From Escherichia phage phi92, in the sequence record NC_023693.1: a DNA stretch of 64,000 nucleotides. One strand, 5' to 3'. The translations under genes and the position numbers were made by a program. The first letter of the stretch is position 1. Every line of letters starts with the position of its first letter. The notes beneath the pieces were generated by a model. It made no database searches, was not told the DNA's origin, and saw only the letters and a program-made list of their open reading frames with translations. Shown here in pieces: positions 3,850 through 63,145 of the stretch.

Positions 3850-4425
3850 TTATTTCTCTTCGTCAAGAAGAATTTTTACTATTTGTTTTCTTCGCTTACT
3901 TACTGTACTTTCTGGTGAAATTCCGCGCTTCGTTAGCCAATTTTTATCCTTTTTAGACTGGCATAAAGCTATCGCTTCCTTCTCCGCTTTTGCTTCCCTG
4001 AATGTCATATCGTGCTTGTCAGCGTAAGCCAGGATAGCGTTACACTGCTTACAAACTACACGCAGGTCGTCTTCTGTTACGTACAATAGGCGTAAAACAA
4101 AACTTGGGATATCTTCATAACAGGTTAATGTACCTGCTGCATTAATATGGTCTACTTGAAAGTCTTTCATACCTCCTGTATGTCCACACAATTCACACTT
4201 ACAATTCCAAACCTGTTTCGGTTTGCCTGTTTTCTTATCTAAAACTATATTTCCATCTTTATCCAACCTATCAGCTTTAAACCGTACAGATTGAATCTTT
4301 TTTATCTTATTCGGGTGTCTCACCCATGCTTTCCTTAAGCAACCCCTTAAATATGTATAAAAGGCTGCTTGAGTTTTCCAAGGTGTTCCATCTCCCCAAA
4401 TAACTTTAGGTTCTTTATTTTCCAA
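3850..4425 (-). CDS. HNH (beta-beta-alpha-Me) endonuclease-like protein
   Basis: CKCELCGH ... VDHINAAG ... CKQCN ... H arrangement typical of HNH nucleases. Confidence 0.55.
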   Translation of the reverse strand: MENKEPKVIWGDGTPWKTQAAFYTYLRGCLRKAWVRHPNKIKKIQSVRFKADRLDKDGNIVLDKKTGKPKQVWNCKCELCGHTGGMKDFQVDHINAAGTLTCYEDIPSFVLRLLYVTEDDLRVVCKQCNAILAYADKHDMTFREAKAEKEAIALCQSKKDKNWLTKRGISPESTVSKRRKQIVKILLDEEK

Positions 4426-5032: not shown

Positions 5033-5995
5033 TTAAATTCCAATAACAGTGTTTACACGCTTCTCTTTGCTACGCAAATTAACACGTCCACGAGACAGGC
5101 TATTACATGATGTGCATCTTAGCACTTGGAATGTACTAACCGCTGTTGTGTAAACCTTACCAGGAACAAATTCAAGGTGCTCTTTACCGCAACGAGGACA
5201 ACGAAGTTTTTCATCGTCATAGAATGCAGATACGTTAGGATGTTGTGGAATCCATGCACGAAGTTTGATGTAAAGATCTCTAAGAGAAACAACATCACCA
5301 TCGTTGTATGTTTGCATACGGAAGAAGGCATGTCTATCTCCTTCACAACATGCTTTCCACAAAGGAAAACCTTCATTATCAAGTTTAAAGTTTTCTGTAT
5401 CAAAATACAAACACATTTCTTTAAGCGCATTAGAAGGTAGTGCAAACTGCTTCTTAGCTGCCTTGAGTGTATCAATTACAACATAATGTGATGGTGGCTC
5501 CATACCGTGAAAAGCAAAACGTTGGTTAATATAAGCCTTATCAAACTTAATACCGTTGTGCGCGATCACAATATCTGCATCGTCAAGCAAGTGCCAGAGA
5601 TCTTGACATAATTCCCAATCATCTGTATGATCTATGTCAAACAAAGGGTAATTGCTAAGGTTCTTACCTTCTACTTCCCCTGTTTCTAAATCAGCAGATG
5701 AATAGGAAAGCAAGTAACCTCGACGAATAACTTGTTCAGGTGCAATAAAGGCTTTGAAACGTGAGAAGCTATACACAATCTCCGGTGCTGTCTCTACGTC
5801 AATAATTTTAATTACTGGCCCACCTTTATCTTGCGGAGCACCGCGATGTGGTGAATTTACACGAGCTAAGTAATCATTTACTGTGCTCTTCTTAGTAGAA
5901 CTTCCCAACACCTCTTGTGCAATCTTACGCGAAGAATAACCTTGTGCTTTCATAGATACAATCAAGGCTTTCTGTTCGTCTGTTAATTTACTCAA
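5033..5995 (-). CDS. DnaQ-like DEDD 3'-5' exonuclease with N-terminal HTH-like region and C-terminal zinc ribbon
   Basis: Exo motifs IIDVETAP, HNGIKFD, YNDGDVV; CPRCG ... CTSCN. Confidence 0.6.
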   Translation of the reverse strand: MSKLTDEQKALIVSMKAQGYSSRKIAQEVLGSSTKKSTVNDYLARVNSPHRGAPQDKGGPVIKIIDVETAPEIVYSFSRFKAFIAPEQVIRRGYLLSYSSADLETGEVEGKNLSNYPLFDIDHTDDWELCQDLWHLLDDADIVIAHNGIKFDKAYINQRFAFHGMEPPSHYVVIDTLKAAKKQFALPSNALKEMCLYFDTENFKLDNEGFPLWKACCEGDRHAFFRMQTYNDGDVVSLRDLYIKLRAWIPQHPNVSAFYDDEKLRCPRCGKEHLEFVPGKVYTTAVSTFQVLRCTSCNSLSRGRVNLRSKEKRVNTVIGI

Positions 5996-15140: not shown

Positions 15141-15334
15141 TTCTTAATAAACTCCAATACAGGTACGTGATCAGCAGTTAAAGTTACACAATTGTAACTT
15201 ACCTTTTCAACTTCAGAGAATGCTTCAACCCAAAGCAAGAAATTCTCTTTAGCTTCTTCATAATTCAATGTTGACTTAACAACATGGAACTCACCAAGAA
15301 TTACTCTATAGATTGTTTGCATAGTTTGATTCAT
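15137..15334 (-). CDS. hypothetical protein (65 aa)
   Basis: ORF only. Confidence 0.3.
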   Translation of the reverse strand: MNQTMQTIYRVILGEFHVVKSTLNYEEAKENFLLWVEAFSEVEKVSYNCVTLTADHVPVLEFIKK

Positions 15335-15400
15335 TTATTTTTCCTTTGTTTAAAATGTGTTAAACAATCGCAAATGCTTGTGACGCACTTTGTGATTCCA

Positions 15401-15769
15401 CTAATTAATGTCAGCACTATGATTGTTGAAAGTATAGGATACTCCATCGCCCAAGTCAACATGAATCTCAACTCCTAACTGTCTTTCTAATGGTAAACGT
15501 TTTGAGAATTGATAATTACAAAGTTTACAGTCTAAGTCAAGCAATTCATGTTTGCTTAAACCTGCAACGATAACTTTGCTTCCCGCTGTCCACTCAATAC
15601 CTTCAAAGTTATCTCTTCTTTTCAAAATGTCAAGTAAGAAGATGATTTGTTGCCATTCCGTAGACAAGTCTTCTTCATAGAACGCAGAACAAAAAGTTTT
15701 ATCATCGTAGAAAGCATACATTATGCCTCCATCTATTGTTTCACTTCTAACGTAACGTGTGACCCTCAT
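15401..15769 (-). CDS. hypothetical protein (122 aa); first gene of the leftward block
   Basis: ORF adjacent to divergent regulatory region. Confidence 0.4.
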   Translation of the reverse strand: MRVTRYVRSETIDGGIMYAFYDDKTFCSAFYEEDLSTEWQQIIFLLDILKRRDNFEGIEWTAGSKVIVAGLSKHELLDLDCKLCNYQFSKRLPLERQLGVEIHVDLGDGVSYTFNNHSADIN

Positions 15770-16110
15770 TATTTCCTCCTGTACGGCTCTGTAACGAGCT
15801 AATAGCCTCTAAGATATGCAATCACCTTACCTCACAGTAAAACTCGTTACAATCGTTTTTAGGAGGTTTAGGTTGTACTTAAAAATAATCTAAAAAGGTG
15901 TTGACAAACGCAAAAAAGTATGCTACCCTAACCCCCGAAAAACGCCGAGCGCAGCGAGGGGGTGTTATCTAATCTTGTGATACATGATCTAACAGACAAC
16001 TGAGTAGTCTACATATAGCACTATGTTATGTCTATAATACTAACATACATACTCTATACTAACAATAGATTCTTTATTAATTTTATTATTAATTAAATAA
16101 TAAATATCTA

Positions 16111-16139
16111 TTGACTTTAGATCTATCTGTATGTAGAGT
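16111..16139 (+). promoter_or_regulatory. sigma70-like promoter upstream of prs-like gene
   Basis: TTGACT - 17 nt - TAGAGT. Confidence 0.5.
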
Positions 16140-16178
16140 AGAGAACATAAAGTCCTAACTCAACTAAGGAGATAAACA

Positions 16179-17072
16179 ATGAAAGTTAGTATTCTACATG
16201 GTGTTGGCTGTTATGTTACTGATGTAGACGTTAAAGTCTTTACATTCTCTGGTGGAGAACAACATGTTCAACTAGACACGAATCTATCAGGTTTCAATCA
16301 TGCTACAGACAGAATCTTACTCTCTTTAGAAGTAAGATCTGCTAAAGACTTGATGACTTTGGTTATGACTAAGAATGCATTGGACAATATGCTATATCAT
16401 AAACCATATTGTGTTGATTTGCTCATGTTGTATGTGCCATATGCACGACAAGACAGAGTGTGTGAACCTGGGGAAGCATTCGGAGTTAAAGCATTTGCTT
16501 CTATAATTAATTCATTAAATTTCTCACGTGTTATCGTTGCTGATCCACATAGTGATGTTACTCCAGCGGTGTTTGACAGACTCTGTGTAATACCTCAAGA
16601 AGAAATTGCTTACGAAACTTTAAAGTGGAAGTTACGTATGGAGAATTTTGCTCTTGTTAGTCCTGATGGTGGTGCTCTTAAGAAAATATTTAAATTATCT
16701 AAGAAAATGTCTTTAGATGTGTTCTGTGCAGAGAAGGTTAGAGATACTGCAACAGGTGCTATTGTTCGTACAGACATTTCTGTACAGGATTTCAATAAGC
16801 GTAACCTGATGATCGTAGATGATATCTGTGACGGCGGTAGAACTTTTATTGAATTGGCTAAAGTGCTACGTGCTCGTAACGCAGGTAAGATTGAGTTATA
16901 TGTTACACACGGTATCTTTTCTAAAGGTCTTAAAGAGTTAAGTGAGCACTTTGACTGCATTCATTCTCTTAATGTGTGGGAAGATAACATCCAAGAAGAT
17001 TCCGGTGTTCTTGTTAAGAATCAGTCAGATTTGCAACAACAAATTGTATCTCCATACGTGTGGAATTTTTAA
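16179..17072 (+). CDS. prs: ribose-phosphate pyrophosphokinase family protein (PRPP synthetase-like; possible ADP-ribose pyrophosphokinase)
   Basis: PRPP-binding loop MIVDDICDGGRT, VSPDGGALKK, VIVADPHS; strong RBS AAGGAG. Confidence 0.85.
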   Translation: MKVSILHGVGCYVTDVDVKVFTFSGGEQHVQLDTNLSGFNHATDRILLSLEVRSAKDLMTLVMTKNALDNMLYHKPYCVDLLMLYVPYARQDRVCEPGEAFGVKAFASIINSLNFSRVIVADPHSDVTPAVFDRLCVIPQEEIAYETLKWKLRMENFALVSPDGGALKKIFKLSKKMSLDVFCAEKVRDTATGAIVRTDISVQDFNKRNLMIVDDICDGGRTFIELAKVLRARNAGKIELYVTHGIFSKGLKELSEHFDCIHSLNVWEDNIQEDSGVLVKNQSDLQQQIVSPYVWNF

Positions 17073-17143: not shown

Positions 17144-18877
17144 ATGAATATTTTTGCACCTTTTGCTACTGATTGGTATAAACCTGGTCACAAGCAGATG
17201 TACAACCAAAATACAAAACTCATTTTCTCTAATTTAACTCCTCGTAATGATAAAAACTTTGCACACTATGCAGATCGTGAAGCACGTGGTGTGATTGTTT
17301 TAGGTATTCGTCGAGCAGTCACTGATGCTCTTGTAACTATGTGGGATAGCTTCTTTAAAATGTCTCGTAGTGCAGCAGTAAATAAATTTTATCGTATGTC
17401 TAAAAATGCATTAGGTGCTTCTGCTCCTTCTGCTGAATGTTGGGAAGAATTGCACGATTTAGGTTATCTTCCGCTAGAAGTTCGATCTCTGCCAGAAGGT
17501 GTTTTGTGTCCTATTGGTGTTCCTGTGTTTACTGTGCATAATACTTTAGAAAAATTCTTTTGGTTAACTAACTATGTGGAAACACTATTGTCAGATGAAA
17601 CTTGGAAGACAATGACTAATGCCACAGCAGCTTTTCAGTATAAGCGTATCGCTATGGCGTATGCGATGGCAACGTGTGATAACATTGATCACGTTAATTT
17701 CCAGTGTCATGACTTTAGCCTACGTGGTTTAAGCAATATCGAAGATGGTTATAAGAGTGGTATCGCTCATTTGGCATCTTTCACAGGAACAGATAACATT
17801 CTGGCTATTGAGACTGTGCATGATTATTATGGTATTGATTATGATCAGTTTGTTGCAGGTTCTATTCCGGCAACAGAACATTCAGTAGCAACGACTAACA
17901 TTGGAGCTATTGTTGAAGATCTGAAGAAACATTTCCCACATCTTAAAGATGATGTTGATGGGCTTCGTTATGTAGCAGAGAAAGAGTTTCTTCGCCGCTA
18001 TATTGAAGAAATTGTTCCAGAAGGTTTTTGTTCATATGTAGCAGATTCTTATGATTACTGGGCTGTCTTGACTCGCATTCTGGTAGAATTGAAAGAGTCC
18101 ATTATGTCACGAAATGGTCGTCTTGTTATTCGTCCAGATTCAGGAGATCCGGTTAAAGTTGTTGCAGGATACAATGTTGAATCTTTTGCTAACTATGAAG
18201 ACCTTTTAAATAATGGTATTGCTACAGCCACTGAAGTAGTTCATTTGGCTGATGTTAATAAGTATTACAATGTTCTTCAGGATTGCAGTGTTGCTGATTG
18301 TATTGATGAAACTTATGAGATTCCTTATTGTGAAGCAGTAGGTTCTATTCAAATCCTTTGGGAAGTGTTTGGTGGTACTATCAACCGAAAAGGCTACAAG
18401 GTTCTTGATCAGCACATCGGTATGATTTATGGTGATTCTATTACTGTTGAACGAGAATACGAGATCTTACGCCGACTGAAGAAGAAAGGTTTTGCAGCTT
18501 CCAATATTGTATTTGGTGTTGGTAGTTATACTTATCAGTTCAATACACGAGATACTTTTGGTTTTGCTGTTAAAGCAACAGGTAGTATCATCGGTGAACA
18601 CGAAATTTTGGTAAGTAAGGAGCCTAAAACTGATCCTGGTAAACGCTCTGCAAAAGGTTTTATTAAGGTTGTTAAGGATACAAATGGTAAACTTTCTCTT
18701 GTGGATAATCTTTCTTTTAAAGATATCCAAGATGAAGACAATGAGTTAAAAGTTATCTTCAGGGATGGTACGGTTATTACACCACAAGTAGAAGGACGTG
18801 ATGAAACATTTACTGATATCCGCAACCGTGTTGATGTAGAGGTTCTTCGTACTATGGGAACCATCCAGGTTGACTAA
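17144..18877 (+). CDS. nadV: nicotinamide phosphoribosyltransferase family protein (NAMPT/NadV-like)
   Basis: N-terminal FATDWYKPGHKQMY matches the NAMPT TDSYK region; 577 aa with C-terminal extension. Confidence 0.85.
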   Translation: MNIFAPFATDWYKPGHKQMYNQNTKLIFSNLTPRNDKNFAHYADREARGVIVLGIRRAVTDALVTMWDSFFKMSRSAAVNKFYRMSKNALGASAPSAECWEELHDLGYLPLEVRSLPEGVLCPIGVPVFTVHNTLEKFFWLTNYVETLLSDETWKTMTNATAAFQYKRIAMAYAMATCDNIDHVNFQCHDFSLRGLSNIEDGYKSGIAHLASFTGTDNILAIETVHDYYGIDYDQFVAGSIPATEHSVATTNIGAIVEDLKKHFPHLKDDVDGLRYVAEKEFLRRYIEEIVPEGFCSYVADSYDYWAVLTRILVELKESIMSRNGRLVIRPDSGDPVKVVAGYNVESFANYEDLLNNGIATATEVVHLADVNKYYNVLQDCSVADCIDETYEIPYCEAVGSIQILWEVFGGTINRKGYKVLDQHIGMIYGDSITVEREYEILRRLKKKGFAASNIVFGVGSYTYQFNTRDTFGFAVKATGSIIGEHEILVSKEPKTDPGKRSAKGFIKVVKDTNGKLSLVDNLSFKDIQDEDNELKVIFRDGTVITPQVEGRDETFTDIRNRVDVEVLRTMGTIQVD

Positions 18878-59928: not shown

Positions 59929-60982
59929 CTACAGATGATTCGTTCATTAAAGAAGTTATTGTCTTTGCTGGACAAGATAACGTAAATGCACACTTTACAG
60001 AACTATCTGGTGCAAATAAAGCAGCAATGAGTAGCACAACAGCCCGTAATGCATATGCTACGCAACGTGGTTTAGCAAATGCTGAAGTTCTTCCGTGTTA
60101 AATACAGCTTCTGGATCATCAGCAGCAGATAAATATGCTGACGATAAAGCTGGAACAGGTACACCAGATAACTACTGGTATGATCTGGATAACACAGCAG
60201 ATGGGCCATGCTTAACTAACTTTATCACTAAAGTCACACCTTATGCAAGTAAGGTTAAAGCAATTATTTGGGGACAAGGTGAAAATGATGCTGTATCAGC
60301 ATCTTCGACTGTTGCAGGTAGGTACAGTAACACTACACGTTACCATGATGCTACGATAGCTATCTTTGATAAGATGCGTACAATAGTTCCTGCTTCTCAA
60401 GCAAAAATTGTTTGGCAGATCCTAGGACGTTCTTATTTATATGGTGTAGAAGTTAATGGTGTGGATTGGCAGAAGTACAGAAATGTACAAAGAACCATCT
60501 CTACAGCACGTGATGATGTTATCATTGGTTCTTGGGTAGATGGTGCTGAACGTTACAGTGGTTATGTTTATGAAGAAGGTATTGATGGTCGTATCCATTA
60601 TATTTCTTCTGTATACCAAACAGCAGCTACAAAACTTGCTAAATCAGCAGCAGACGGTACAGATTTAACATCAACGTCACCTGTTTGGGTTGATATGTCT
60701 GTTCCAACAGGAGGAGCCGCTGTAAGACAAGCTAACCAAGATGTAATTATCTCTTGGGAACCAGCAGGATATACTAAACATTACTTCCGAAATGTAAACG
60801 TCCTCACAGCAGCAATTCTTACAGAACAAACCCTGGATACTAACACTTACACATTTACTTATGCAGATCAGGTTGAACAATATGGATTTGCAGCAGGTAC
60901 AACAGTGTTTGATGTTGCACACTATGATGCTGATAATGACGTGTTATCACCTCTTGTCAGATTTACAGTCAATGTTACATAA
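59898..60982 (+). pseudogene. SGNH/SASA-like esterase gene split across two reading frames (frameshifted or recoded)
   Basis: open frame 59898-60098 with no ATG near its start encodes VFAGQDNVNAH (GQSN-like block); continues in another frame from 60095 with IIWGQGENDA; the preceding Ig-like ORF ends at 59928 in a third frame. Confidence 0.4.
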
Positions 60983-62197: not shown

Positions 62198-63145
62198 TTA
62201 GAAACAGTGCAGGAAGTTTCGACCATACTGCAAACCAATAGGAGCAAATGGGATATCATCATCGAAATCTTGAACAACAGGTTCTGATTCTTTCGGTGCT
62301 GGCTCTTTCTTCTCTACTTTTTTAGTTTCTTTCTTAACTTCTTGTACTGAGGTAGACATTCCACGGATAGCAGCAGCTACTTTATCAGACAAAGCAAGAA
62401 CTTCACGAGCAGCTTCAATAATCTCTTCTGCCGTTACAGTTTTACCTGTATGATCACGACAAGCGTTAAGAATTGCGTGTCCAACTGAAGCACCAAGATC
62501 ATAGTCAGTCGCAGCAGCGCCACGATCTTTAGCAATTTCTGCTTTCAGAGTAACAGTTGCAGATTGTACCACACCAGCCAAGTCGAAAGCATCACCTTTC
62601 ACACCAGCACGTAGAAGCTCCAGAGCGCCGTTTACAGCGTGTCCTGTTTCAATCCCTACGGTATCACGTTTTTTGTAGTTAGGCTTGCTACCTTCGTTAT
62701 TAGATGGCTTATTTCCACCTTTTGAAGAAGATTGTGCTTGCTGAACACCTTCTGTTGAAAGAACAGTGATTTTACCTTTAGAGGAGTTGTAGTATGTTTT
62801 GCCATTCCATTCGGAAGGTTTAACATCTATAGTTACTTCTACACCTTTTTCGATAGTAATCCACTTATCACCATCTTTAACTTGCAGGTTTTCATGTTCT
62901 GGGTGCAGTTTAACTTCACCTAGGCTAACCCAAACACCTTTATCATCAGCACCAGCACCTTTCTCTTTAATAAGCAGAGATGCTTTGTGAGTTGATTCAA
63001 TTTTCTTATCTGGCTGACCTGCAACCTTAATATAAGAGACTTTCATTTCATCAAACTTATCCAGTTTGACATATTCAACGATACCTTCAGCCCAGAATGC
63101 TTCTTTTTTAGTACGACGGTCGATTTCAGAATTAATTACTGGCAT
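62198..63145 (-). CDS. single-stranded DNA-binding protein-like
   Basis: C-terminal acidic tail DFDDDIPF identical in form to the bacterial SSB tip; Gly/Ser/Asn-rich linker. Confidence 0.55.
   Translation of the reverse strand: MPVINSEIDRRTKKEAFWAEGIVEYVKLDKFDEMKVSYIKVAGQPDKKIESTHKASLLIKEKGAGADDKGVWVSLGEVKLHPEHENLQVKDGDKWITIEKGVEVTIDVKPSEWNGKTYYNSSKGKITVLSTEGVQQAQSSSKGGNKPSNNEGSKPNYKKRDTVGIETGHAVNGALELLRAGVKGDAFDLAGVVQSATVTLKAEIAKDRGAAATDYDLGASVGHAILNACRDHTGKTVTAEEIIEAAREVLALSDKVAAAIRGMSTSVQEVKKETKKVEKKEPAPKESEPVVQDFDDDIPFAPIGLQYGRNFLHCF

What the first reader, a model, noticed from the sequence alone, without database searches (positions are those of the whole stretch)
15770..16178. Divergent 409-bp regulatory region with GC-rich palindrome and direct repeats
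This is the only long non-coding gap in the left half and separates leftward from rightward gene blocks. It contains a GC-rich hairpin-prone segment (CCCCCGAAAAACGCCGAGCGCAGCGAGGGGG, about 15931-15962), unusual in this AT-rich genome. It also has two copies of CTATA(A)TACTAACA and TTGACA/TTGACT promoter elements. It may be a bidirectional promoter-operator or a replication origin.
Basis: seen in the sequence. Interest (0 to 1): 0.4.

Follow-up and report, generated by a model that had tools for sequence, protein, structure and literature searches.

The report
Conserved phage promoter-plus-hairpin control cassette
The gap is the control region of a phi92-like coliphage, and its GC-rich "palindrome" is one copy of an apparently undescribed, strongly conserved promoter-plus-odd-hairpin cassette that recurs in this phage, across its subfamily and in satellite-like islands of enterobacterial chromosomes.

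Summary
Window 15770-16178 is a 409-bp ORF-free gap between a leftward gene and the rightward prs-NAMPT-tRNA block of a phi92-like phage (Justusliebigvirus). It holds both the most GC-rich 32-mer and the most AT-rich 60-mer of the 64 kb.

The CCCCC/GGGGG palindrome is not the conserved feature. What is conserved is a cassette:
- TTGACA, 17 bp, then TGcTACCCT (an extended -10 promoter, P1).
- A non-canonical hairpin, C-GA-GC-[GNA/GNNA]-GC-GA-G, whose lower stem covaries.

A model of the hairpin finds three copies in the phage genome. I found 53 promoter-type variants in relatives, metagenomes and integrase-primase islands of Citrobacter, Buttiauxella and Scandinavium.

At least ten lineages whose Prs proteins are only about 60% identical keep the same layout upstream of prs: P1, hairpin, CTAACA repeats, AT tract, then a second promoter P2 (TTGACT-17-TAGAGT).

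In Phapecoctavirus the cassette lies between co-directional genes. GC skew flips at all four changes of gene orientation. So nothing specifically supports an origin.

Best reading: tandem rightward promoters with operator-like repeats, with P1 giving transcripts a 5'-terminal structured hairpin. The hairpin's role is inferred. No transcription data exist. The kind is known (promoter/stem-loop cassettes); this variant appears new.

The parts
15770..16178 (.). Whole divergent intergenic control region between the leftward gene (phrog_14390, 15401-15769) and prs (16179-17072)
15901..15906 (+). P1 -35 hexamer TTGACA
   Evidence: Read. TTGAC is invariant in 12 prs-type lineages. TTGAC or TTTAC lies 17-18 nt upstream of TACCCT in 53 of 71 distinct cassettes.
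15921..15929 (+). P1 extended -10, TGcTACCCT (hexamer 15924-15929). It follows a 17-nt spacer (15907-15923).
   Evidence: TGCTACCCTA is invariant in all aligned lineages. The hexamer matches TATAAT at only 3 of 6 positions, so the consensus scan missed it. The key positions -12T, -11A and -7T and the upstream TG are present.
15936..15938 (+). Predicted P1 transcription start, 7-9 nt after the -10, within the conserved CGAA
   Evidence: Inference from promoter geometry. Not mapped.
15943..15961 (+). Conserved non-canonical hairpin: C43-G61, G44.G60, C45-G59, C46-G58, tandem G47.A57/A48.G56, G49-C55, C50-G54, loop G51-C52-A53. An irregular extension reaches 15937-15967.
   Evidence: Covariation of the lower stem. 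Covariance-model hit at 15938-15967, 32.3 bits, E 2.4e-8. It is the only consensus structure RNAalifold finds in the leader. Loop variants GCA, GAA, GGGA, GATA, GAAA, GTAA, GACA and GGCA occur in homologs.
15931..15962 (+).
   Evidence: The outer C5/G5 arms are specific to this lineage.
15986..15997 (+). Operator-like repeat 1, GATCTAACAGAC
   Evidence: Conserved as (T)AGATCTAACAGAC in most prs-type lineages.
16032..16045 (+).
   Evidence: Aligns with AGATCTAACATAC of other lineages.
16054..16064 (+).
   Evidence: Also present, diverged, in Tr1.
16060..16110 (.). Extreme A+T tract (7.5-10% G+C) abutting the P2 -35. Its length varies between strains.
   Evidence: A 12-bp duplication in phage inny is annotated as a repeat_region. 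A TTAATTAA core is conserved.
16111..16139 (+). P2: TTGACT (16111-16116), 17-nt spacer, TAGAGT (16134-16139). Predicted start about 16146.
   Evidence: TTGAC-N17-TAYACT is conserved in position in relatives.
16166..16181 (+). Shine-Dalgarno AAGGAG (16166-16171) and the prs start codon (16179-16181)
15824..15852 (-). Weak candidate leftward promoter TTGTAA-17-TAAGGT
   Evidence: Read. It scores 8 of 12, below the scan threshold. Not conserved outside the genus.
16006..16034 (-). Weak candidate leftward promoter TAGACA-17-TAGACT
   Evidence: 9 of 12. The aligned sequence in other lineages is not promoter-like (my reading).
15790..15851 (.). Perfect 9-nt inverted repeat TGTAACGAG / CTCGTTACA, with 44 nt between the arms, in the left part of the gap
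   Evidence: I14. Not followed up.

Best explanation
The gap is the transcriptional control region for the rightward prs-NAMPT-tRNA (and onward) block of a phi92-like phage, and for the divergent leftward block. It contains two tandem promoters for host sigma-70 RNA polymerase.

P1 and its hairpin:
- P1 has a consensus -35, a 17-bp spacer, an extended -10 TG and the unusual but invariant hexamer TACCCT.
- P1 is fused to a hairpin that would form within the first 30 nt or so of the transcript.
- The hairpin has a short Watson-Crick base, a G.G mismatch, tandem sheared G.A pairs, two G-C pairs and a GNA/GNNA loop.
- P1 and the hairpin together form a portable cassette. It is used three times in this genome, throughout Stephanstirmvirinae, and in integrase-primase islands.

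Downstream of the hairpin:
- About 150 nt of leader carry three CTAACA-type repeats, probably binding sites for a regulator.
- An extremely AT-rich tract then acts as the upstream (UP/bent-DNA) element of P2.
- P2 drives prs from a 5' UTR of about 33 nt.

Shown:
- The sequence anatomy and its conservation pattern.
- Covariation and strand-specificity of the hairpin.
- Copy number and intergenic location.

Inferred:
- That P1 and P2 fire.
- The positions of the transcription starts.
- That the hairpin acts as RNA. My preferred roles are a 5'-end-protecting stabiliser or the binding site of a host or phage factor that marks these transcripts.
- That the repeats are operators.
For: Identity of the phage:
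- The region is 95-100% identical in 54 Justusliebigvirus records.

Conservation:
- Between genera only the central part of the gap is conserved. Tr1 aligns over window 15894-16100 at 70%. Klebsiella phages behave the same way.
- Twelve lineages whose Prs is 56-64% identical to the window's keep P1, hairpin, repeats, AT tract and P2 in the same order upstream of prs. Hexamers are invariant; spacers vary in sequence but not in length.

The hairpin is real and strand-specific:
- Over 41 distinct sequences the lower-stem covariation score is 0.332, against 0.161 +/- 0.022 in shuffles (0 of 500 reach it). All slid registers score 0.114 or less.
- Pair 8-23 is CG 22, AU 9, GU 2, UA 2, GC 1.
- G.U pairs are frequent, so the structure exists only on the sense strand.
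- The loop is always GNA or GNNA.
- RNAalifold recovers this hairpin and nothing else in the leader.

Copies and location:
- The covariance model finds exactly three copies in the whole genome, each directly after TGCTACCCTA.
- 53 of 71 distinct cassettes have TTGAC or TTTAC 17-18 nt upstream of the -10.
- None of those 53 is overlapped by a same-strand ORF of 100 aa or more. The next ORF starts 60-1888 nt downstream.

Local features:
- The AT tract abuts the P2 -35.
- CTAACA is enriched 25-fold locally.
Against: - No transcription start, RNA or protein-binding data exist for this phage group in the searched literature.
- The P1 -10 matches the consensus at only 3 of 6 positions, and the consensus scan missed it.
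- Ordinary promoter function does not explain why TACCCT and the flanking bases are invariant.
- Nearest-neighbour energies of the hairpin are unremarkable, with z between about -2.5 and +0.9 in most copies.
- The phAPEC8 copy has almost no Watson-Crick base below the G.A pairs.
- The core GAGCG-N-AGCGAG was fixed by the search pattern. Only the flanks and the loop are independent evidence.
- One genomic copy (outra about 121.8 kb) points antisense to the surrounding genes and has a poor -35.
- GATCTAACA is not enriched genome-wide: 4 exact copies in 148 kb.
- A convincing leftward promoter was not found.
Confidence: 0.65

Rival explanations
1. Transcription-primed replication origin. As at the T7 primary origin or T4 oriF/oriG, the P1 transcript runs into the adjacent AT-rich unwinding element, forms an R-loop and primes leading-strand synthesis. 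The CTAACA repeats would be iterons. The knowledge of the T7 and T4 origins is my own.
For: - Order of parts: promoter, then 3 direct repeats, then the most AT-rich 60-mer of the window.
- A local cumulative GC-skew minimum lies at 16127.
- GCGNAGC / GCGNNAGC mini-hairpins are reported at phage and plasmid replication and transcription initiation sites (PMC13037366).
Against: - Skew switches sign at four places, all coinciding with changes of gene orientation. There are two comparable minima, and the global minimum of the composite genome is at the other divergent point, not here. rV5 behaves the same way (PMC3606486).
- The cassette lies between co-directional genes in phAPEC8, phiWec179 and KP13-16. 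At outra 93.1 kb it leads straight into a gene.
- The AT tract sits exactly where an UP element of P2 would be. Its length varies freely between strains.
- In relatives one repeat lies inside the P2 spacer, which is an operator position.
- The flanking genes are prs and two small PHROG families of unknown function, and the annotated DNA polymerase and primase/helicase lie more than 45 kb away. So no replication gene is adjacent; flanking genes were not screened for an initiator.
Confidence: 0.12
2. The cassette acts mainly at the DNA level, as a mobile or recombinogenic regulatory module like the PeSLs of T4-type phages. The conserved roughly 60 bp would be a preferred crossover site that shuffles downstream genes. 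The hairpin would be a single-strand DNA mini-hairpin or a protein-binding site, not a functional RNA.
For: - The same cassette sits in front of unrelated genes in different genera, and three times in one genome.
- It is shared at 91% over only 44 nt between Klebsiella phages and an otherwise unrelated Citrobacter island.
- The tip fits the ultra-stable DNA mini-hairpin consensus exactly (PMC13037366).
- PeSLs are precedent for promoter-plus-stem-loop cassettes that mediate modular shuffling (PMC2839356, PMC4122927).
Against: - The lower stem covaries with many G.U pairs, and the hairpin always lies downstream of the promoter on the sense strand. That is what a transcribed RNA predicts.
- Recombination alone does not explain purifying selection on the loop type and the G.A pairs.
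- This rival and the main explanation are not mutually exclusive.
Confidence: 0.1
3. P1 makes a short regulatory RNA or an attenuated leader that ends before P2. The hairpin would be a pause or termination signal, or a leftward terminator in this lineage. P1 would then not contribute to prs expression.
For: - The genomic copy at outra about 121.8 kb is antisense to the coding genes. It is followed by conserved hairpins (TTTCATG-N5-CATGAAA) in about 10 metagenomic relatives, which looks like an sRNA.
- The scan finds a terminator-like site on the minus strand at 15956-15943 followed by T5.
Against: - No U-tract follows the hairpin on the plus strand in any lineage.
- The minus-strand T-run is specific to the window lineage, and one terminator-like site is what shuffles give (1 found, 0.7 expected).
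- RNAalifold finds no second conserved helix or terminator between the hairpin and P2.
Confidence: 0.1
4. A metabolite-sensing leader (PRPP, NAD+ or another riboswitch) controlling prs and NAMPT.
For: Position upstream of PRPP synthetase and nicotinamide phosphoribosyltransferase genes.
Against: - No riboswitch family matches, even at E <= 10.
- The same hairpin precedes unrelated genes.
- No conserved multi-helix fold exists in the leader.
Confidence: 0.02

Closest known systems
PeSL (promoter-early stem-loop) cassettes of T4-type phages (PMC2839356, PMC4122927)
   Same: - A small conserved intergenic cassette that joins a strong sigma-70-like promoter to a stem-loop.
- AT-rich DNA upstream of a -35 (here at P2).
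- Several copies per genome.
- Found in front of different, often orphan, genes in related phages.
- One described PeSL subclass has the stem-loop downstream of the -10.
   Different: - A different phage lineage (Stephanstirmvirinae, not T4-type).
- Only 3 copies per genome, not dozens.
- The stem-loop is a fixed non-canonical G.A/GNA hairpin, not a G4...C4 Watson-Crick terminator stem. It has no U-tract, so terminator function is unlikely.
- The -10 is invariant and non-consensus.
- Recombination or mini-circle formation was not tested.
Rfam RF02987 GA-cis RNA (3' hairpin of the model)
   Same: The helix plan is identical: 3 bp, a 1x1 G/G, 2 bp, a 2x2 GA/GA, 2 bp (GC), then a G..A loop. The model consensus is GCCGCcGAgcGaAagcGAgGGGGC; the window reads CGCCGAGCGCAGCGAGGGGG.
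   Different: - The score is 21.3 bits against a gathering score of 34.7 (E 0.035-0.07).
- The 5' stem matched in the window (AGGAGG...CC) lies upstream of P1 and is not conserved in relatives.
- No other cassette copy matched GA-cis at E <= 1.
- The biology of GA-cis could not be retrieved. It is not discussed in the main text of PMC5737381, and no supplements are held.
Extraordinarily stable DNA mini-hairpins GCGNAGC / GCGNNAGC (Kimoto & Hirao review, PMC13037366)
   Same: - Every cassette tip reads GCG-N(1-2)-AGC.
- The review reports such motifs at phage G4/St-1 primer sites, RSF1010 ssiA and N4 early promoters, that is, at replication or transcription initiation regions.
   Different: - Those are single-strand DNA structures studied in vitro.
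- Here the hairpin carries additional tandem G.A pairs and a covarying base with G.U pairs. It sits in the transcribed region, which points to RNA.
- Stability was not measured.
Promoter-proximal RNA hairpins that recruit or modify the transcription complex (lambda/P22 nut boxB with N; HK022 put). My own knowledge.
   Same: A small conserved hairpin with a purine-rich G..A-closed loop and non-canonical purine pairs, placed just downstream of phage promoters that head long operons.
   Different: - No boxA-like element was identified.
- No N-like protein was identified.
- The hairpin lies at the very 5' end rather than tens to hundreds of nucleotides downstream.
- This is purely an analogy.

Membership tests
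Sigma-70 promoter (P1) | -35 hexamer close to TTGACA | tested here: met
   TTGACA at 15901-15906. TTGAC is invariant in 12 lineages.
Sigma-70 promoter (P1) | 16-18 bp spacer, constant in length but free in sequence | tested here: met
   17 nt in the window. 17-18 nt in 53 of 71 cassettes. The spacer columns are variable.
Sigma-70 promoter (P1) | -10 hexamer close to TATAAT | tested here: inconclusive
   TACCCT matches 3 of 6 positions and was missed by the consensus scan. It has -12T, -11A and -7T, and an upstream TG (extended -10).
Sigma-70 promoter (P1 and P2) | Transcription actually starts there | not testable with these tools
   No TSS data found.
Sigma-70 promoter (P2) | -35, 17-bp spacer and -10 | tested here: met
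   TTGACT-17-TAGAGT scores 9 of 12. It is conserved in position as TTGAC-17-TAYACT.
PeSL cassettes | Promoter joined to a stem-loop in a conserved intergenic cassette present in several copies | tested here: met
   3 copies per genome. All are intergenic.
PeSL cassettes | Occurs in hyperplastic regions of T4-type phages | tested here: not met
   The host genome is a Justusliebigvirus, subfamily Stephanstirmvirinae.
PeSL cassettes | The stem-loop acts as a terminator or attenuator | not testable with these tools
   No U-tract follows the hairpin, so this is unlikely.
PeSL cassettes | Mediates recombination or gene shuffling | tested here: inconclusive
   Different downstream genes follow it in different genera, and only the 44-nt cassette is shared with an island. 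No junction analysis was done.
Rfam GA-cis (RF02987) | Score at or above the gathering threshold | tested here: not met
   21.3 bits against 34.7. Other copies give no hit.
Rfam GA-cis (RF02987) | 3' hairpin with 1x1 G/G, tandem GA and a G..A loop | tested here: met
   Alignment.
DNA mini-hairpin GCGNAGC/GCGNNAGC | Sequence consensus | tested here: met
   All 41 aligned tips fit it. Consensus taken from PMC13037366.
DNA mini-hairpin GCGNAGC/GCGNNAGC | Exceptional thermal and nuclease stability as single-strand DNA | not testable with these tools
   Nearest-neighbour models do not capture it. The DNA fold is -6.5 kcal/mol with z = -0.9.
N4-type hairpin promoter | 5-7 bp Watson-Crick stem with a 3-nt loop (GGA or GAA caps in the review), recognised by a virion RNA polymerase | tested here: not met
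   Only 2 G-C pairs lie above the G.A pairs. The window loop is GCA, not the GGA or GAA caps the review describes for N4 promoters (PMC13037366). The presence of a vRNAP gene was not tested.
Replication origin | Skew switch not explained by transcription | tested here: not met
   All four switches coincide with gene-orientation switches.
Replication origin | Iterons next to an AT-rich unwinding element | tested here: inconclusive
   3 CTAACA repeats next to a tract of about 10% G+C. The positions fit operators and an UP element of P2 equally well.
Replication origin | Initiation of DNA synthesis at the site | not testable with these tools
   None.
Intrinsic terminator | GC-rich stem followed by a U-tract on the transcribed strand, conserved | tested here: not met
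   Plus strand: no U-tract. Minus strand: one site in the window only, and it is absent in relatives.
Riboswitch / known cis-regulatory RNA | Match to any Rfam family | tested here: not met

The most novel reading that the evidence does not exclude
The invariant TGCTACCCTA-plus-G.A-hairpin cassette is the recognition signature of a phage-controlled promoter or transcript class in Stephanstirmvirinae. A phage (or host) factor would read the hairpin to switch on, or protect, the metabolic, tRNA and replication operons. It would also drive an antisense RNA into the early block.

Small integrase-primase islands in Citrobacter, Buttiauxella and Scandinavium have copied the cassette directly downstream of int. 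This would let them sense infection by these phages. That is regulatory mimicry of a helper by a satellite.
Probability: 0.15. Interest if true: 0.75.

Novelty: new variant of a known kind. Interest (0 to 1): 0.5.

Why it matters
The cassette inside it is the unexpected part.

About 60 nt of non-coding sequence stay almost unchanged while the protein encoded downstream drifts to about 60% identity. The cassette combines a non-consensus but invariant -10 with a hairpin built from non-Watson-Crick pairs. It recurs in a whole subfamily of 140-150-kb coliphages now used in therapy collections.

It is also shared with chromosomal integrase-primase islands. No curated RNA family covers it.

It offers a compact, testable handle on three things: how these poorly studied phages organise transcription or RNA stability, how satellites might couple to them, and whether tandem-G.A/GNA hairpins are a general structural module in viral genomes. 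It could also serve as a portable promoter-plus-5'-hairpin part for expression design.

Tried and rejected
1. Known RNA families. Rfam at gathering threshold finds only tRNAs in the window. Permissive scans give only the sub-threshold GA-cis hit and noise. Seventeen loci that carry the generic hairpin tip gave no family overlapping it. Other cassettes gave no GA-cis hit.
2. Riboswitch for prs/NAMPT. Rejected on the Rfam results, and because the hairpin precedes unrelated genes.
3. Coding potential. No ORF longer than 25 aa lies wholly inside the gap. The small CDSs annotated in some relatives are not conserved.
4. Tandem repeats. None by TRF.
5. Thermodynamic exceptionality of the palindrome. 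Not significant as RNA or DNA on either strand.
6. Host homolog. No match of the core in 5,426 E. coli genomes, and none for the island leader.
7. A conserved RNA fold of the 150-nt leader. RNAalifold finds none beyond the hairpin.
8. GATCTAACA as a genome-wide operator. Only 4 exact copies in 148 kb.
9. Origin by skew. Non-specific.
10. A factor shared by the phage and the islands. tblastn of island ORFs against the phage found no homolog from the int-to-primase module.
11. First pattern scans. The tip alone (GCCGAGCGNAGCGAGG) is too common to be specific, and CTAACAGACNACTGAG found only close relatives.
12. Literature. No transcriptome or promoter study of this subfamily was found.
13. Cassette-pattern hits that lack a -35 (L174, L176, L186, L191, the L193 group, L200, L208, L220, L231, L232). 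I treat these as chance or unrelated. My rough estimate, which assumes a metagenome collection of about 1e12 bases and was not computed by a tool, is about ten chance matches for this pattern.
Full report
**What the window is.** The region 15300-16700 is 95-99% identical to 54 phage records of the genus Justusliebigvirus (phi92-like myoviruses of about 146 kb, subfamily Stephanstirmvirinae). The gap 15770-16178 separates a leftward block of small genes from a rightward block. The first leftward gene is 15401-15769 (phrog_14390, unknown function). The rightward block begins with ribose-phosphate pyrophosphokinase (prs, 16179-17072) and continues with nicotinamide phosphoribosyltransferase (17144-18877) and 15 tRNA genes.

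**Checking the observation.**
- No ORF longer than 25 aa lies wholly inside the gap, and there is no tandem array.
- In the annotated near-identical phage outra it is the largest gene-free gap of the first 34 kb.
- The 32-mer 15931-15962 is 71.9% G+C, the maximum of all 32-nt windows in the 64 kb.
- About 100 nt further on, 16053-16119 is the most AT-rich 60-mer of the window, at about 10% G+C.
- The ATACTAACA repeat is exact at 16037 and 16056.
- With a third CTAACA at 15989, the motif is about 25-fold enriched locally.

The palindrome as described is weak. CCCCC pairing with GGGGG folds at -12.4 kcal/mol with z = -1.6, and the DNA parameters and the other strand are no better. Its C5 arm is not conserved in other lineages.

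**What is conserved.** Citrobacter phage Tr1, which has no genus assigned in its record and is only about 70% identical here, aligns only over window 15894-16100. Klebsiella phages of the subfamily show the same pattern. The invariant core is TTGAC(A/T), 17 nt, (T/C)ATGCTACCCTAA, 8-12 nt, then (C)C-GAGCG-N-AGCGAG-G(G).

Read as a promoter, this is a consensus -35, a 17-bp spacer, an extended -10 TG, and a hexamer TACCCT that keeps -12T, -11A and -7T. The consensus scan missed it because the hexamer matches only 3 of 6 positions. So P1 is inferred from geometry and from the conservation pattern, in which the hexamers are fixed and the spacer is free in sequence but fixed in length.

**The hairpin.** In the window the pairs are C43-G61, G44.G60, C45-G59, C46-G58, G47.A57, A48.G56, G49-C55 and C50-G54, with loop G51-C52-A53.
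- In homologs the loop is GAA, GCA, GGGA, GATA, GAAA, GTAA, GACA or GGCA. It is always G...A with one or two free bases.
- The bases flanking the fixed core covary. Over 41 distinct sequences the covariation score is 0.332, against 0.161 +/- 0.022 for shuffles (0 of 500). Every slid register scores 0.114 or less.
- The second pair is CG 22, AU 9, GU 2, UA 2, GC 1. Further out, U-A, U.G and C-G alternate.
- The many G.U pairs would be A.C on the other strand, and the tandem G.A pairs would be C.T. So the structure exists only on the sense strand, downstream of P1.
- RNAalifold on 12 prs-type leaders finds this hairpin and nothing else.
- With a start 7-9 nt after the -10, the hairpin begins within a few nucleotides of the 5' end. 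In most lineages the conserved CGAAG at the predicted start can pair with a conserved GAUUC after the hairpin. That reading is mine.
- Standard energy models rate the hairpin as unremarkable.
- The tip matches the GCGNAGC / GCGNNAGC mini-hairpin consensus. The extreme stability of that motif as DNA is documented and is not captured by such models (PMC13037366).

**It is a repeated cassette, not a feature of this gap alone.** A covariance model of the hairpin finds exactly three hits in the window plus the rest of the outra genome. Each follows TGCTACCCTA directly.
1. Window 15938-15967, plus strand.
2. Outra about 93.1 kb, minus strand. It lies in a gap inside the leftward replication-gene block and is followed by a second hairpin, a Shine-Dalgarno sequence and a gene.
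3. Outra about 121.8 kb, minus strand. It is antisense to the surrounding rightward early genes and has a poor -35 (TTTTAC).

In phAPEC8, phiWec179 (both Phapecoctavirus) and Klebsiella phage KP13-16 the cassette lies between co-directional small genes.

Pattern scans of IMG/VR, metagenomes and GTDB genomes gave 71 distinct cassettes.
- 53 have TTGAC or TTTAC 17-18 nt upstream of the -10.
- None of these 53 is overlapped by a same-strand ORF of 100 aa or more.
- The remaining 18 lack a -35, and I treat them as chance or unrelated. My rough estimate, which assumes a collection of about 1e12 bases, is about ten chance matches for the pattern.

**The prs control region as a whole is conserved.** Eleven of the twelve loci examined (the window plus ten others) have a detectable prs downstream of the cassette; L222 ends before any prs could be reached. 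In nine of the ten others Prs is 56-64% identical to the window's, and in L192 only a short 73-residue stretch at the contig end aligns. The distance from cassette to prs is about 260-610 nt by my calculation from the coordinates. The alignment shows the same order everywhere:
- P1.
- The hairpin.
- A first (T)AGATCTAACAGAC.
- A second AGATCTAACATAC.
- An AT-rich TTAATTAA tract of variable length.
- P2, TTGAC-N17-TA(C/T)ACT. In the window this is TTGACT-17-TAGAGT, 16111-16139, which the scan also found.

In several lineages a third GATCTAACA or GATCTTACA lies inside the P2 spacer, which is a classical operator position. GATCTAACA is not enriched elsewhere in the genome, so any regulator is local to this region. 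The AT tract directly abuts the P2 -35. Its length varies between strains: inny carries a 12-bp duplication annotated as a repeat_region, and PD06 and the Klebsiella phages have longer tracts. This fits an UP or curved-DNA element. PeSL promoters of T4-type phages likewise have AT-rich DNA upstream of the -35 (PMC2839356).

**Leftward transcription.** I could not identify a convincing leftward promoter in this lineage.
- The candidates are TTGTAA-17-TAAGGT (15852-15824, 8 of 12, my reading) and TAGACA-17-TAGACT (16034-16006, 9 of 12).
- Tr1 and the Klebsiella phages have a good one, TTGAC(T/A)-17-TA(C/T)CAT on the minus strand. It lies in a segment that is a gap in the window's row of the alignment (my reading).

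**Is it an origin?** The composite genome was built from the window plus outra 60-145 kb. Its cumulative GC skew has minima at 16127 and at outra 95330, and maxima at 60588 and at outra 125895. These are exactly the two divergent and two convergent points of gene orientation. The authors of the rV5 genome reached the same conclusion for that relative (PMC3606486). The skew therefore says nothing specific.

The sequence promoter, repeats, AT tract resembles transcription-primed origins (T7, T4 oriF; my own knowledge). I keep this as a rival at about 0.12. The cassette's occurrence in non-divergent, gene-proximal contexts argues against it as the general function.

**Comparison with known systems.**
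- PeSL cassettes of T4-type phages are the closest in kind. They also join a sigma-70 promoter to a stem-loop, are repeated, and precede variable genes. The lineage, the copy number and the nature of the stem-loop differ, and here there is no U-tract.
- The hairpin's helix plan equals the 3' hairpin of Rfam GA-cis (RF02987). The match scores 21.3 bits against a gathering score of 34.7. It is helped by a non-conserved upstream AGGAGG, and other cassette copies do not hit the family. I do not file it as GA-cis.
- The tip equals the Hirao mini-hairpin consensus. The N4 hairpin promoters described in that review differ in stem length, loop and position.

**Most likely mechanism.** Host RNA polymerase starts at P1 and P2. 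P1 transcripts carry a compact 5'-terminal hairpin of non-canonical purine pairs.

Two roles seem most likely for the hairpin, and both are inferred. It may protect the 5' end from 5'-end-dependent decay. Or it may be bound by a factor that marks or modifies these transcription units. The CTAACA / AGATCTAACA repeats are probably operator sites that tune P2 and read-through from P1.

The invariance of TACCCT and its flanks is not explained by ordinary promoter function and remains open. My confidence that the cassette is a promoter plus a transcribed structured 5' leader is about 0.65. My confidence in any specific role for the hairpin is much lower.

**A lead beyond the window.** The cassette also sits immediately after the stop codon of a tyrosine integrase in small islands. 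These islands also encode a DUF5906/primase-type protein and a few small ORFs.
- They occur in Citrobacter sp. OP27, two Buttiauxella MAGs, a Scandinavium MAG and several metagenomic contigs.
- The Citrobacter island shares only the 44-nt cassette (91% identity) with Klebsiella Stephanstirmvirinae phages.
- It shares no protein of the int-to-primase module with the phage.
- This looks like a satellite carrying a helper-type regulatory module. It is speculative but testable.

**Verdict.** The promoter-operator reading is partly supported. The origin reading is not specifically supported. The GC-rich palindrome is reinterpreted as one copy of a conserved promoter-plus-G.A-hairpin cassette that appears not to have been described. 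Novelty: a new variant of a known kind. Interest: 0.5.

Noticed in passing
outside the window: MN850645 (outra) about 93,083-93,140 (-) = L161 33063-33140; and about 121,776-121,830 (-) = L162 16755-16830: Two further copies of the TGCTACCCTA-plus-G.A-hairpin cassette. One heads genes of the leftward replication block. The other points antisense into the rightward early-gene block and has a weak -35 (TTTTAC).
   Followed up: partly
L229 (Citrobacter sp. OP27 chromosome) 4091-4160 (-); also L228, L234, L236, L230, L169/L218, L224, L225: Integrase (392-426 aa) followed at once by the cassette. A leader with few called ORFs follows (over 400 nt to the next ATG-ORF of at least 45 aa in L229, about 900 nt to the next ORF of at least 120 aa in L169/L218). 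It carries covarying hairpins (TTATCCC-GAA-GGGATAG versus TCTCTC-GAA-GAGAGAG). Then come small ORFs and a DUF5906/primase-like gene. These satellite-like islands share only the cassette with Stephanstirmvirinae phages.
   Followed up: partly
L005-L124 (IMG/VR hits of GCCGAGCGNAGCGAGG), e.g. L019, L033, L121, and L013/L017/L062/L076/L081/L114 (the first five on one 403-kb contig): The hairpin tip occurs in many unrelated viral contigs, including giant-virus MAGs. It is often present in 2-3 copies per locus and embedded in longer complementary stems. 22 of 122 have at least 3 extra pairs, against 11.2 +/- 3.0 in shuffled controls. A GTCATTCC-tip-GGAATC variant recurs in viral contigs, metagenome contigs and a Chloroflexota MAG. 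This may be a general structural module or repeat element.
   Followed up: partly
L162 16624-16792 (-), L163, L181, L203, L204, L207, L209, L210, L217: Downstream of the antisense-type cassette lies a conserved second hairpin (TTTCATG-N5-CATGAAA, with compensating variants) and further conserved blocks. No ORF was checked. It looks like a small non-coding RNA gene.
   Followed up: partly
L170 (84-kb IMG/VR contig) 5851-5882 (-): This cassette copy has a perfect 7-bp lower stem and a GAAA loop but no -35. It lies about 3 kb upstream of a co-oriented tRNA cluster, echoing the cassette-prs-NAMPT-tRNA order of the window.
   Followed up: no
records MG065639, MG065645, MG065656, MG065689: Four records named 'Campylobacter phage', with host C. 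jejuni, are 98-99% identical to E. coli phi92-like phages in this region. The host assignment is probably wrong, or the samples were contaminated.
   Followed up: no
PP359570 (phage ALITA) record end = window 16064: This genome record is opened inside the gap, just before the AT tract. Whether that reflects a mapped terminus or an arbitrary choice is unknown.
   Followed up: no
window 20508-20583: ARAGORN calls a tRNA with a two-base anticodon '(tt)'. Rfam scores it as a good tRNA (63.7 bits), and a tRNA-Lys is annotated at the corresponding position in the tRNA cluster of outra (coordinates there are shifted by about 158 nt).
   Followed up: no
window 16060-16110; L002 1823-1848; L129: The length of the AT tract is polymorphic among otherwise 96-100% identical phages. 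There is a 12-bp duplication in inny, EmilieFrey and AV123, and longer versions in PD06. This suggests replication slippage.
   Followed up: partly
window 15790-15798 / 15843-15851: A perfect 9-nt inverted repeat, TGTAACGAG / CTCGTTACA, lies in the left, lineage-specific part of the gap. It could be a hairpin in the leftward 5' UTR or a binding site.
   Followed up: no
L152 (Klebsiella phage FKP3) 2843-3418: An HNH endonuclease gene is inserted between prs and NAMPT in this relative only.
   Followed up: no
window about 34,000-62,700 compared with outra: Window position 62695 corresponds to outra 60001. The window therefore carries about 2.7 kb that outra lacks somewhere upstream of that point.
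   Followed up: no
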